64,000 nucleotides of DNA, from positions 21,452,001 to 21,516,000 of the forward strand of contig CP158635.1 of the NCBI GenBank assembly GCA_050273025.1, given 5' to 3'. The notes below the pieces were generated by a model. It searched no databases. It saw only the letters and a list, made by a program, of their open reading frames with translations, and was not told where the DNA came from. Positions 4,300-60,420 of the stretch are shown here, in pieces. This DNA comes from Cenococcum geophilum (Eukaryota). Each line of letters starts with the position of its first letter. Position 1 is the first letter of the stretch. The position numbers and the translations under genes were made by a program.

Positions 4300-7200
4300 T
4301 ATAACGGAACCTTATAGCAAGAACTACGGTAGGTCCTATTATTGGGCTAGGTGTATAGGAAATGCAAGTATAAAAGTCAATAACGTAATAATAACTGGTG
4401 GAGTGGTTGCCTAATAGATTAACTCCAATTATATTCTAAGAATCACTATAAGGAAGAAACTATCTAGGTAGGGATTAAGGGTCCTTAAATACACAACTGT
4501 ACTCCTATAAAATCCTTTTTATATATAATATACGTCTTATATATAAGGTACATAAGTTCCTTTTATTCCTCTTATTTAATATATAGCATATTATATAACC
4601 TTAGTTACCATTTCTCGTTATATAGTTCTATCGGCTCTATTCTAGACCGTGCCTAAATTAACTAACTAGCTTCTTCTATCTCTTCTCTAAGTAGTTATAA
4701 TATTATACTTAAGCGTTCGTAATACCATTTCCCTTCTTTTTATCTTTATCCTTAAAGATTCCTAATATCTTTAAGTTATTTACTAGAGGTATAATATCCA
4801 TCTAATTAATTTGGTTAATATTATTACTTATTATACCTAAAGCAATTTCTTCTTTACACGCCTAATGTCGTGCTCGCACTATTACTGCAATATTATCTCT
4901 TAGTGAGATTATACCGTCTCCGTATTCTTATTATTTAAAAAAGGGGTTAGTTTATATTGCGTTAGCGAACCCATTTTCGCAATAACCGTTCTCTTACTTA
5001 GAGTGCACTAAAGCGAATATTTATTTATCCTGCGATATTCGCTCTACCTCTAATACTAAATATACGCGACTTATTACTCTTAATAGTCGTCTAGTTCCCT
5101 AATTAATTTATCTTAGAGTTTTATATTTAATCTACTACTACGCGGCTAGATAGTAAACTGTCTTAAGCCCTTACTAAATTAGAATGTTCTTATAATACAG
5201 AATAGAAGGCCCTAAATACCCAGATTGCGGCATTTACTTATTTACTTTATCTTAAGAAGGTTTATAAGAAGGTTTATTTTAAGAAGTAGAAACTTATAAA
5301 ATAAGGTTTATAGGAACTTAGCGATAAAAGAACGGATTCTCTTCTAATAGAGAAGGAAATAGATCTGAGTAATTCGGCAACTGCTCTTCTTAGGTCCCCC
5401 TTAGGTAACTTATTCTTTAGTAATTCTTCTTTATTAATACTACCTAACCTAATTTCTTCTAATACTCCTGTACCTTTTTTATAGCGTTTTTTTAAATTTT
5501 CTAGTAGCTTCTAGGTAGTCTTAGTGTAGCCTATCCACTTAACCTTATACTATATTTTATTGTTAATATCCTTATAATTAACGATCTTTAAAACTTGCTA
5601 TTTATCTTCCTCTTATCCTCTATATGTGTCTACTTTATAAACTAGTGGCTTAACATTCCCGTATACTGGCTCTAGCATTATAATATACTATATAGGGTAG
5701 ATCTTAATTTTGGCTAGTAGGTTTAGCTTAAATATAACTAGTAAAATCCTTTACGTAATTTTAAAAGGTCCTAGTCTAACGTAGTTTAACTTCTTACTTA
5801 GTTATTAACTCTTAAAATTTTTATATAGTAGCTATACTTTATCTCCCTCCTTAAGATCTGGTCCCTTAGATCTCTTAGCATTATAGTACCTTTTTATTCC
5901 TTCTTATACTTTCTTTACTAATTCTATAAGGTCTATATAAAGATTTATTAATATCTTTATTCTTTCTTTAGCTCTGCTACTTATTTTCTTTACTTACCGT
6001 AGTAATAGTAATATTCTTAGCTTATATCCATAATTTGCCTTAAATAGTAATATACCTATTCCTTTTTAGGGTGTTATATTATATATAAACTATATAACTA
6101 GTAATAGCGATACCTAATTATTCTATGTATAATTAATATAATGCCTTAGATACTACTCTAGTGTCTAATTTAGTTTCTTTATTTAACCGTCTATCTACAG
6201 ATAATATGCGGTAGAAGTTGCTGCTTAAACCCCTTACTCTACTAAGAATACTTCCTAGAATACTGCTATAAATCTTAAATCTCTGTCTAATATAATCTTG
6301 CTTAGTGCTCTATATCTTATAAATACTTCTTTAATATAGATTTTAGCGACATCTTCCGCTAAGATTTCTTCTGTATATGCTATAAAGTATCCCTACTTTA
6401 TAAGCTTATCTACTATTACTAAGATCGCGTTATAATCTTATCCAGTAATAGGATCTTTTAACTTTAGTAACTTAATAATAAAGTCCTATAATATAACCTC
6501 CTATAGTCTTTCTAGTATTTTAATAGGTTATAGCCCTCTATATAGCCTATGCCTTATTAGTTTATTCCTTTAGTAATCTAAATACTCTCTTATAACCCTT
6601 TTAGCTATTCTCTAGATTCCGTTAATAATATATTCCTCTTAGAGTCTTAACACTAAGCCTATAGCTCCATTATATCTTTAAGTTAATCCCTTATAGAATT
6701 CTTCTATAAATTGCTCTGCTATACTTAGGATATACTTTACTTCTTGGTTTTTATATATATCTATCTATAAATCTTCTAGTTATACTTTTAGAATTCTTTA
6801 TACCTAAAAGCTTTCTAGTATCTTATAGACCTTCTCTAGTTCCTTATCTTCTTAGGTTGCTATAATTTTTAGATAATTATACCTAATTAATCTGTCTATA
6901 TCTTTTCGCAGTAAAGCCCCTAATGGCTTTTTATTGTTTTATAGTTTAGCCTTTTAACTTAGAGCATCTGCTTATATATTATCTATACCCTTAGTATACT
7001 AAATCTTAAAATAGTATTTTATAAGTATCTCTGCCTATCTAACCTATCTTTAGTTAAGTTCCTTTATCGTTAGAAATCCTATTAGGTTTTTATAATCCGT
7101 CTTAACTATAAATAGTTTCTTTATACCTTATAAGAATGCTCTCTATTCCTTTAATACTATAACTATACCTAATAACTTCTTGTTGTAAATGTTATAGTTT

Positions 7201-59739: not shown

Positions 59740-60420
59740 ATAGCTCTACTAGCTCCTCCTTCTCTTCTTCCTCTTCCTCTTCCTTCTTCTCTCCCTTTTC
59801 CTTATTTTCCTTATCACTTATAATAGGAGGTATATTAGCCTATAAGTACTATTAGTATATACTACGCCGGTAAAACACCTGCGCTATAATATATACTAAA
59901 GCGCGTATTATATTAAGAATCCCTTTAAGAGTCCAATAAATGGCCTATAATTCCTATACTTAAAGTAGGGGAAAGTCTTTACCCTTTAGGCGCTAGCGGA
60001 GACTATACTTAGCGCTAGTACGTAGTAAAGCCTTAATATCCTTTATAAAGGACCTCTAGGTAGTAGTAATGCGAGTATTAAGGTTAGCTATATCCCCGCT
60101 AGGAACCTAATAGCGCTTAGCCCAGTTAATAAGGGTAAGTAGCTTATTTAGATAGCTATAGGGGCCTTAGGGACTTAGTCCTATTAGCTATTAGAACCTA
60201 AACTAACGTATATAGACTTATAGCTTAGCATAACTTATTTAGTTATTAGTAATAACTATAATTATAGTTAGCCTACTTACTATAGGTGACCTACTTAGTA
60301 ATAGCTGCGCGCTTAGCGTAGCGGAGGTAAATAGGTTTAAGTAAGGCTAGTAAAGTACCTTATAAGCGGTATAGGAGCTTAAATAGCGTTTAGTAAGGTT
60401 AGAGCCCGCTATATATAGGT
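59740..60420 (-). pseudogene. Antisense spliced accessory gene of element G (Cys6 motif, intron, poly-acidic tail)
   Basis: 60329-60228 reads C-x2-C-x11-C-x7-C-x2-C-x6-C after de-RIP (last Cys intact); RIPed donor (G>A)TAAGT at 60221 with GCTAAT branch; GAA/GAG run ~59750-59815. Confidence 0.6.

What the first reader, a model, noticed from the sequence alone, without database searches (positions are those of the whole stretch)
4833..60420. Three dissimilar Gypsy families each carry an antisense, spliced Zn2Cys6-like accessory gene between pol and the 3' LTR
Seen: between chromodomain and PPT, families B/C/E, F/H and G each have an opposite-strand frame with six TGY/TAY codons spaced CxxC...C...CxxC-x6-8-C (4923-5033, 26296-26406, 33788-33672, 60329-60228), followed closely by splice signals and a helical or acidic tail. 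Element A lacks it. Established: the canonical Gypsy coding set is gag-pol; Zn2Cys6 clusters are fungal DNA-binding domains; RIP turns TGY into TAY. Inference: a shared third gene, transcribed inward from the 3' LTR, whose introns survive retrotransposition because they are antisense to the genomic RNA; it could regulate the LTR or counter silencing. I do not know of a description of this in fungal chromoviruses but cannot check the literature.
Basis: partly seen in the sequence, partly recalled or inferred. Interest (0 to 1): 0.88.

Follow-up and report, generated by a model that had tools for sequence, protein, structure and literature searches.

The report
Antisense cysteine-cluster gene in fungal retrotransposon
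One family of mutation-wrecked fungal Gypsy retrotransposons in this window holds the remains of a real extra gene, backwards-facing and with an intron, for a small six-cysteine, coiled-coil protein; the other two families show no such gene, and extra genes laid out this way are already known from Botrytis elements.

Summary
The window is an AT-rich block of nested Ty3/Gypsy chromoviruses degraded by RIP (repeat-induced point mutation).

Family B/C/E: the finding holds.
- Antisense to pol, between the polypurine tract and the chromodomain, lies a dead two-exon gene: B 4833-5484, C 20171-19499, E 26212-26834 plus 34837-34853.
- In 266 relatives the six Tyr/Cys sites hold Tyr or Cys almost exclusively, so Cys is ancestral. 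The spacing is C-x2-C-x6-C-x13-C-x2-C-x8-C.
- The intact relative P0267 (152 aa) has all six Cys and then a long helix.
- 64 of 67 genomic copies carry exactly 55 extra bases (GT..TAG) where P0267 is continuous.
- Transversions pile up at third codon positions in the exons, but not in the intron or LTR.
- 86 of 86 relatives with enough flank have Gypsy pol on the opposite strand.

Limits.
- Pfam Zn_clus is not reached (13.6 bits against a cut-off of 21), so the protein is Zn2Cys6-like, not a proven member.
- F/H and G: no homology, no database relatives, and patterns that do not fit. The loose pattern occurs 60 times in the window.
- The claim of three families sharing one gene is not supported.

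The layout is published (brtn of Boty, Zhao 2011). This scan has noted the same thing on other DNA several times. Function is inferred only.

The parts
4300..4722 (-). 3' LTR of element B (pol on the - strand); its partner 5' LTR is at 11822-12245
   Evidence: Self-blast, 92% identity between the two. Pol domains lie on the - strand.
4726..4755 (-). Polypurine tract of B (pyrimidine run on the + strand), directly inside the 3' LTR
   Evidence: Read from the sequence; an inference from its position.
4833..5061 (+). Exon 1 of the dead antisense gene, copy B. The start codon is now ATA, and there are 2 RIP-made stops. The six-Cys motif lies at 4923-5033.
   Evidence: (P0267 aligns to 4857-5087, E 5e-14).
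5062..5116 (+). 55-nt intron of copy B. It begins ATA (once GTR) and ends TAG. It splits a codon T|GG (Trp).
   Evidence: 64 of 67 relatives carry exactly 55 extra bases compared with the uninterrupted P0267. The first base is G in 17 and A in 53; the end TAG is near-invariant. No codon periodicity inside it.
5117..5484 (+). Exon 2 of copy B: the helical (coiled-coil) part. The putative stop is TAG at 5482-5484. The end abuts or overlaps the chromodomain-coding end of pol on the other strand.
   Evidence: (P0212, P0267, P0280, P0283 match this frame).
19499..20171 (-). Copy C of the same gene: exon 1 20171-19943, intron 19942-19888, exon 2 19887-19499.
   Evidence: (exon 1 E 1e-9, exon 2 E 3e-6 in another frame).
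26212..26834 (+). Copy E (a diverged subfamily, about 67% nucleotide identity to B here): exon 1 26212-26422, intron 26423-26477, exon 2 from 26478. It is cut by the insertion of element F.
   Evidence: (indels of 12, 21 and 3 nt, all in frame).
34837..34853 (+). Last 17 bases of copy E's exon 2, with its stop TAG, on the far side of the F insertion.
33672..33788 (-). No gene could be shown here.
60228..60329 (-).
60446..60588 (-). Fragment (last ~150 bases) of a B/E-type LTR next to the G site.
   Evidence: 81% identity to 11823-11971.

Best explanation
Shown. Elements B, C and E (one Gypsy/chromovirus family, two subfamilies) each hold a RIP-killed copy of a real accessory gene.
- The gene lies on the strand opposite gag-pol. 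It starts about 110 bases inside the 3' LTR boundary and ends tail-to-tail with the chromodomain end of pol.
- It has two exons and one 55-nt intron.
- It once encoded a protein of about 200 aa: a basic, Ser-rich N-terminus, six cysteines spaced C-x2-C-x6-C-x13-C-x2-C-x8-C, then a long helix.
- The intron stays in genomic copies. The element's genomic RNA is the opposite strand, so it cannot be spliced there. This last point is an inference that fits the data.

Inferred (about 35% likely). The protein binds zinc through the six Cys, pairs through the helix, and acts as a small sequence-specific nucleic-acid (probably DNA) binding regulator of the element's own LTR. It would be made from a promoter in or just inside the 3' LTR.

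Shown to the limit of these tools. Families F/H and G carry no detectable copy of this gene. Their 'motifs' are at the level of chance in Tyr-rich RIP-mutated DNA.

The confidence given is for the structural claims (a real dead gene in B/C/E, none detectable in F/H and G), not for the inferred function.
For: Relatives and cysteines.
- 139 hits and 279 representatives.
- The six sites hold Tyr or Cys almost exclusively in 266 sequences.
- 2 of 266 keep all six Cys and 9 keep five.
- P0267 (152 aa, no stop) has all six Cys and then a helix (residues 77-151, pLDDT above 95).

Intron.
- 64 of 67 copies carry exactly 55 extra bases, GT..TAG.
- The split codon rebuilds the Trp seen in P0267.
- All three window copies have it.

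Selection.
- Columns with transversion diversity, by codon position 1/2/3: exon 1 18/6/40 (p 9e-7); first half of exon 2 21/18/44 (p 7e-4).
- Controls: intron 6/6/6; LTR plus leader 15/15/16.
- The order 2<1<3 fits the antisense strand, not the pol strand.
- Indels between B/C and E are 12, 21 and 3 nt.

Context.
- 86 of 86 copies with room have RNaseH-integrase-chromodomain on the opposite strand, 500-800 bases from the start in nearly all. 5 copies had no room.

Likeness to Zn clusters.
- Among PDB sequences the best of two very weak hits (E up to 10) is the zinc cluster of PPR1 (1pyi, E 0.56, not significant).
- Pfam Zn_clus scores E 0.075.
- The nearest Atlas cluster (score 0.90) is named 'Zn(2)-C6 fungal-type domain-containing protein': 204 aa, 77 members, Ascomycota. 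This is a lead only.

Pairing.
- The model supports a homodimer: score 0.50 against a best control of 0.00. This mark was reached by 21 of 30 proteins solved as pairs and 0 of 23 solved as single chains.
- Runs agree in at least 67% of contacts; partner pLDDT is at least 77.
- Contacts run along residues 75-150 and are antiparallel. The calibration held no ligand, and the protein is eukaryotic, so the counts hold only roughly.
Against: - No copy in the window is intact.
- Zn_clus PF00172 stays below its cut-off: 13.6 against 21 bits for P0267; 0 of 51 and 1 of 15 (E 1.5) other members matched.
- A family profile finds nothing in the PDB.
- AF2 is unsure of the Cys region (pLDDT 52-68), and Foldseek finds nothing.
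- The Cys part alone brings no Zn_clus cluster in the Atlas.
- The third-to-fourth Cys loop has 13 residues, outside the classic 5-12 (recalled). Only one Lys follows the second Cys, where GAL4-type proteins are basic (recalled).
- The predicted dimer is antiparallel, unlike GAL4 (recalled).
- No evidence on the promoter, on zinc, or on DNA binding.
- The origin of P0267 (mRNA or an intron-less DNA copy) is unknown.
Confidence: 0.8

Rival explanations
1. One reading: one shared third gene, Zn2Cys6-like and spliced, is carried by three dissimilar Gypsy families (B/C/E, F/H, G).
For: - F/H keep about 2.1 kb, and G about 0.9 kb, of unexplained DNA after the chromodomain.
- The F frame around the motif has fewer stops than average.
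Against: - HMMs of the B-type family hit only B, C and E.
- hhalign probability is 0.07%.
- No cross-family similarity at E<0.01.
- 0 database relatives among 219 candidates for the F/H frame, against 139 for B/C/E.
- No Pfam match.
- The merged F/H cysteine spacing does not fit.
- The loose pattern occurs 60 times in the window.
- G has no LTR that can be identified.
Confidence: 0.07
2. The B/C/E gene is real, but its six-Cys module is not a GAL4-type DNA-binding cluster. It is another zinc- or disulfide-held module. The protein would then serve the element in some other way, for example by binding RNA, pol or gag, or a host silencing factor.
For: - Zn_clus is not reached.
- The profile finds no PDB relative.
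- The Atlas search with the Cys part alone gives only unnamed or DUF clusters.
- The loop of 13, the few basic residues and the antiparallel model differ from GAL4 (the GAL4 features are recalled).
Against: - Spacing and local sequence around the first Cys trio resemble the PPR1 cluster. That is the best of only two very weak PDB hits, both non-significant.
- A cluster followed by a pairing helix is the GAL4 plan (recalled).
- The nearest Atlas cluster carries a Zn(2)-C6 name.
Confidence: 0.3
3. There never was a protein. The conserved stretch in B/C/E is a cis-acting part of the element (next to the polypurine tract), or a C-terminal extension of pol read on the sense strand.
For: - The stretch lies next to the polypurine tract.
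- In the 89-copy consensus the pol frame stays open for about 85 codons past the chromodomain.
Against: - Codon periodicity in the antisense frame (position 2 lowest, position 3 highest) shifts frame across the intron and is absent inside it.
- There is an uninterrupted 152-aa relative.
- Indels are in frame.
- Met is conserved at codon 1.
Confidence: 0.03

Closest known systems
[quoted passage not shown] 2011, Virology 417:248). The paper itself is not held; I saw it cited, with passages, in PMC8365987, PMC7264820, PMC4227169 and PMC5987419.
   Same: A fungal chromovirus with an extra gene between pol and the 3' LTR, on the opposite strand, present in most copies of the family.
   Different: - Homology to brtn could not be tested, because no brtn sequence was on hand.
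- Whether brtn has six Cys, an intron or a coiled coil is unknown to me.
- The copies here are all RIP-dead.
Antisense additional ORFs between pol and the 3' LTR of plant Gypsy elements: Grande, RIRE2, Retand, PvRetro13 (review PMC7264820, passages read).
   Same: Same place and orientation. They are conserved about as well as the other element proteins. Their function is unknown.
   Different: They occur in plants, in non-chromovirus lineages, and as unrelated proteins as far as is known. No six-Cys cluster is reported in the passages I read.
GAL4/PPR1-type fungal Zn(2)Cys(6) binuclear cluster proteins (Pfam PF00172).
   Same: - Six Cys in two C-x2-C-x6/8-C halves.
- Local likeness to the PPR1 cluster (not significant).
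- A cluster followed by a helix predicted to pair.
- Restricted to fungi.
   Different: - Below the Pfam cut-off.
- A loop of 13 residues and few basic residues.
- The predicted dimer is antiparallel.
- Only about 200 aa, with no regulatory middle domain.
- Carried by a retrotransposon.

Membership tests
Zn_clus, fungal Zn(2)Cys(6) binuclear cluster (PF00172) | Six Cys spaced C-x2-C-x6-C-x5-12-C-x2-C-x6-8-C (spacing recalled) | tested here: inconclusive
   The family has C-x2-C-x6-C-x13-C-x2-C-x8-C. Five spacings fit; the central loop is one residue too long.
Zn_clus, fungal Zn(2)Cys(6) binuclear cluster (PF00172) | Score at or above Pfam's gathering cut-off (21 bits) | tested here: not met
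   P0267 scores 13.6 bits, E 0.075, matching only profile positions 18-36. P0212 scores 9.4 bits. 0 of 51 RIP-mutated members match. P0124 and P0132, with all six Cys, give no match.
Zn_clus, fungal Zn(2)Cys(6) binuclear cluster (PF00172) | Fold of the binuclear cluster | tested here: inconclusive
   AF2 pLDDT is 52-68 over the Cys region. Foldseek against the PDB gives no match. A family profile against PDB sequences gives none. A single-sequence search puts PPR1 first at E 0.56.
Zn_clus, fungal Zn(2)Cys(6) binuclear cluster (PF00172) | Binds two zinc ions and CGG-type DNA sites | not testable with these tools
   Needs purified protein.
Zn_clus, fungal Zn(2)Cys(6) binuclear cluster (PF00172) | Dimerises through a coiled coil after the cluster | tested here: inconclusive
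   The model supports a homodimer: 0.50 against a best control of 0.00; 21 of 30 solved pairs and 0 of 23 single chains reach the mark; at least 67% of contacts shared; pLDDT at least 77. But it is antiparallel, and P0267 is probably cut short at residue 152.
Antisense additional ORF of LTR retrotransposons (aORF between pol and the 3' LTR; brtn-like) | Lies between pol and the 3' LTR, on the opposite strand | tested here: met
   B, C and E in the window. 86 of 86 related copies with room.
Antisense additional ORF of LTR retrotransposons (aORF between pol and the 3' LTR; brtn-like) | Conserved as a coding sequence across copies of the family | tested here: met
   Transversion periodicity in both exons but not in the intron or LTR. 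In-frame indels. The intact relative P0267.
Antisense additional ORF of LTR retrotransposons (aORF between pol and the 3' LTR; brtn-like) | Transcribed (and here spliced) | tested here: inconclusive
   P0267 equals the spliced form, but its origin is unknown. The RNA run X21 has no reads over exon 1 or the intron of the dead copy B.
Antisense additional ORF of LTR retrotransposons (aORF between pol and the 3' LTR; brtn-like) | Sequence homology to brtn itself | not tested
   No brtn sequence was available, and the paper is not held.

The most novel reading that the evidence does not exclude
A widespread family of ascomycete chromoviruses encodes its own small, dimeric zinc-cluster regulator. 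The regulator would be made from a spliced antisense message that starts at the 3' LTR, and it would bind the element's LTRs to switch the element on, or to hold off silencing. If brtn proves to be the same gene, this would give that orphan gene a first biochemical reading. It would also link retrotransposons to the fungus-specific Zn2Cys6 family.
Probability: 0.22. Interest if true: 0.7.

Novelty: new member of a known kind. Interest (0 to 1): 0.42.

Why it matters
Extra genes of LTR retrotransposons are rarely understood. Here a fungal one can be read through heavy RIP damage.
- It was kept under purifying selection while the family spread.
- It keeps its intron because it faces backwards.
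- It looks like a small nucleic-acid-binding dimer.

That makes a testable case of a retrotransposon carrying its own regulator. It is also a warning that Tyr-rich 'cysteine patterns' in RIP-mutated DNA are mostly chance: two of the three families claimed here fail.

Tried and rejected
- No whole genome is held for the window, so all copy-based work used the window and 80 metagenome loci.
- Pfam on X-masked frames of B, C, E, F and G gave nothing beyond pol domains.
The single protein P0267 worked.
- The F/H frame alignment A5 found no relative among 219 candidates. Only proteins of 66-263 aa were candidates, and the search is word-based, so this is weak absence.
- The loci hold only partial F-like copies (L074, L036) that stop short of the motif, and next to no G-like DNA. 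F/H and G could therefore not be de-RIPed further.
- Reads: in the RNA run X21, reads lie only on part of the LTR (4394-4487) and at 5381-5474. No joint 5061/5117 was seen in any of 4 runs. These copies are dead, so this says little. One contig of X19 (possibly DNA) skips 5257-5302 (46 nt, GT..AG) inside a direct repeat; I read it as a copy variant.
- ARAGORN and Rfam at gathering thresholds found nothing in the window.
- Earlier-findings look-ups by place and by sequence gave nothing.
- Literature: searches found no paper linking Zn2Cys6 with a Gypsy antisense gene. The library lacks most subscription journals, including Zhao 2011.
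Full report
SETTING. The window is AT-rich (GC about 0.28-0.38, with islands near 0.48) and holds nested Ty3/Gypsy chromoviruses ruined by C-to-T and G-to-A changes (RIP, repeat-induced point mutation). Self-comparison and pol searches give these elements:
- B: 4300-12245, pol on the - strand, LTRs at 4300-4722 and 11822-12245.
- C: 12744-20693, an inverted copy 85% identical to B.
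- E: a diverged relative, split by the insertion of F (about 25680-26834 and 34837-35305).
- F: 26837-34836, pol on the + strand.
- H: 40675-51064, a relative of F with a 1.8 kb insertion.
- G: RT-RNaseH at 56786-58075 and a chromodomain near 59450-59560.
- One more integrase at 24167-25000.
No whole genome is held for the window.

THE OBSERVATION. The stated stretches read as described, but the pattern by itself is worth little. Tyr makes up 7.5% of six-frame codons. The strict [CY] Zn2Cys6 pattern occurs 7 times in the window. The version that B/C/E actually fit (central loop up to 13) occurs 10 times. With only three window copies, four of the six sites are TAY in all copies, so the window alone cannot decide.

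B/C/E: OUTSIDE EVIDENCE. An alignment of the three antisense translations (A1) found 139 proteins at E<=10, with E-values down to 8e-38. A profile of 51 of them found 279 cluster representatives at E<=0.001 and 206 at E<=1e-10. Nearly all are themselves RIP-mutated.

Because the damage differs from copy to copy, the columns can be read. In 266 aligned sequences the six sites hold Tyr or Cys almost exclusively: Y/C 162/100, 156/107, 222/42, 196/57, 99/152 and 126/101, with at most two other residues at any site. RIP makes TGY into TAY and never the reverse, so Cys is ancestral. Neighbouring 'Tyr' sites that show R/C/H/Y mixtures were Arg. The stop at codon 51 is Gln in 249 of 256. Codon 1 (ATA in B) is Met in 167 of 205. 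Two of the 266 keep all six Cys and nine keep five.

A second search found P0267, 152 aa with no stop. It has all six Cys spaced C-x2-C-x6-C-x13-C-x2-C-x8-C, followed by a long helical stretch. P0212, P0280 and P0283 cover the tail. P0267 aligns directly to B (4857-5087, E 5e-14), to C (exon 1 at 1e-9, and exon 2 at 3e-6 in another frame) and to E (7e-6).

INTRON. P0267 runs on where most relatives read into a short unrelated stretch and stop. In 80 related metagenome loci (329 of 601 candidate stretches encode a relative) the match falls into two pieces. In 64 of 67 copies with both pieces the DNA holds exactly 55 bases more than P0267; two hold 127 more and one holds 130 more. The 55 bases begin G/A-T (G in 17, A in 53, as expected of TG->TA) and end TAG. 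Joining the exons makes T|GG, which is the Trp that P0267 has at that point. B, C and E each have this 55-nt piece. This gives the gene models:
- B: 4833-5061 / 5117-5484.
- C: 20171-19943 / 19887-19499.
- E: 26212-26422 / 26478-26834, with the last 17 bases at 34837-34853 beyond the F insertion.
P0267 is thus either a spliced message or an intron-less copy; I could not tell which.

SELECTION. RIP makes transitions only, so transversions among 89 aligned copies report on older evolution. Columns with transversion diversity above 0.05, by codon position 1/2/3, are:
- exon 1: 18/6/40 (chi-square p 9e-7);
- first half of exon 2, in its own frame: 21/18/44 (p 7e-4);
- second half of exon 2: 11/12/19 (not significant);
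- intron: 6/6/6;
- LTR plus leader: 15/15/16.
The order 2<1<3 fits the antisense strand. On the pol strand it would put the most variable position first. Indels between B/C and E are 12, 21 and 3 nt. So the frame was kept by selection while the family diversified.

CONTEXT. In the related loci, 86 of 86 copies with enough flank have the RNaseH-integrase-chromodomain part of a Gypsy pol on the opposite strand, beginning 500-800 bases from the gene's start in nearly all. Five copies had no room. All of these belong to the same broad element family, so this shows that the gene is part of the element. It does not show independent acquisition.

WHAT THE PROTEIN IS.
- Pfam Zn_clus is not reached. 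P0267 scores 13.6 bits (E 0.075, cut-off 21), and the first Cys trio is aligned to the second half of the model. P0212 scores 9.4 bits; 13 of the other 14 tested, including two with all six Cys, match nothing. 0 of 51 RIP-mutated members match.
- Against PDB sequences, P0267 gets only two very weak hits (E up to 10). The better one is the zinc cluster of PPR1 (1pyi), at a non-significant E of 0.56. The family profile finds nothing.
- AF2 with 34 sequences gives mean pLDDT 80, but only 52-68 over the Cys region, and above 95 for a helix at residues 77-151. Foldseek against the PDB finds nothing.
- The ESM Atlas puts the whole protein nearest (0.90; 200 of 256 features) to a cluster of 204-aa ascomycete proteins automatically named 'Zn(2)-C6 fungal-type domain-containing protein'. 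The Cys part alone brings only unnamed or DUF clusters. These are leads, not tests.
- The model supports a homodimer: score 0.50 against a best control of 0.00. That mark was reached by 21 of 30 proteins solved as pairs and by 0 of 23 solved as single chains. The runs share at least 67% of contacts, and partner pLDDT is at least 77. The contacts run antiparallel along residues 75-150. The calibration held no ligand and the protein is eukaryotic, so the counts hold only roughly.

My reading is a Zn2Cys6-like, probably zinc-binding and pairing, small nucleic-acid-binding protein. Family membership is unproven. Regulation of the LTR is an inference from this plan and from the gene's place next to the LTR.

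F/H AND G. Merging F and H gives C-x2-C-C ... C-x3-C, with a stop where the third Cys should be. The further tests were all negative:
- B-type HMMs and P0267 hit nothing there.
- hhalign gives probability 0.07%.
- Six-frame comparison of the post-pol regions of F, G, B and the 24-25 kb element finds no cross-family match at E<0.01.
- The F/H frame alignment finds 0 relatives among 219 candidates, against 139 for B/C/E by the same tool.
- Pfam finds nothing.
- G has no LTR pair that can be identified, and a B/E-type LTR fragment abuts the site.
The 2.1 kb after F's chromodomain remains unexplained. I cannot exclude another, unrelated gene there, but nothing supports one.

EXPRESSION. Near-identical DNA is held by 16 DNA runs in 10 studies. 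In the one true RNA-seq run laid (X21), reads lie only on part of the LTR and at 5381-5474. No run shows the 5061/5117 joint. For dead, AT-rich copies this says little.

WHAT IS KNOWN. An antisense additional gene between pol and the 3' LTR of a fungal chromovirus is in print: brtn of Boty-like elements (Zhao et al. 2011). The paper is not held. I read passages citing it in PMC8365987, PMC7264820, PMC4227169 and PMC5987419. Plants have analogous ORFs (PMC7264820). Four full-text searches found no paper linking a Zn2Cys6-like protein to such a gene, but the library lacks most subscription journals. Earlier notes of this scan report the same kind of gene on other DNA and also name brtn; I took the brtn lead from them. 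Whether this family is brtn itself could not be tested.

VERDICT. There is a real, dead, spliced antisense gene for a six-Cys, coiled-coil protein in one family (B/C/E), and no evidence for it in F/H or G. It is a new member of a known kind of accessory gene, of moderate interest.

Noticed in passing
window 26834/26835 and 34836/34837: Element F inserted into element E inside the antisense gene's exon 2, 17 bases before its stop codon.
   Followed up: partly
window 33105-33357: A roughly 250-base stretch inside F has normal GC and looks untouched by RIP. It is absent from H and from the F-like copy in L074. Part of it (33098-33246) recurs in L038 (93% identity) and twice in L053. ARAGORN and Rfam find nothing. 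Its identity is unknown.
   Followed up: partly
window 1541-1796, 25689-25983, 60446-60588: Further fragments of the B/E-type LTR. 25689-25983 belongs to E's 3' LTR; the other two look like solo or truncated LTRs.
   Followed up: partly
window 22660-23089: A tandem array whose self-matches lie at offsets that are multiples of 54 bases. It sits in a region of higher GC with several long overlapping open frames on both strands.
   Followed up: no
window 48752-50542: A 1.8 kb insertion in H relative to F, just before H's 3' LTR. Its content was not examined.
   Followed up: no
window 5257-5302: One contig of run X19 (labelled RNA by guess only) skips 46 bases with GT..AG ends inside exon 2, within a short direct repeat. 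It may be a copy variant rather than a second intron.
   Followed up: no
window about 5230-5500, - strand: In the 89-copy de-RIPed consensus, the pol frame stays open for about 85 codons beyond the chromodomain, opposite exon 2 of the antisense gene. The two genes may overlap tail to tail. The second half of exon 2 shows no clear periodicity.
   Followed up: partly
window 478-942 and 38395-38820: Open frames of 154 and 141 codons lie in the two islands of normal GC. They may be host genes and were not examined.
   Followed up: no
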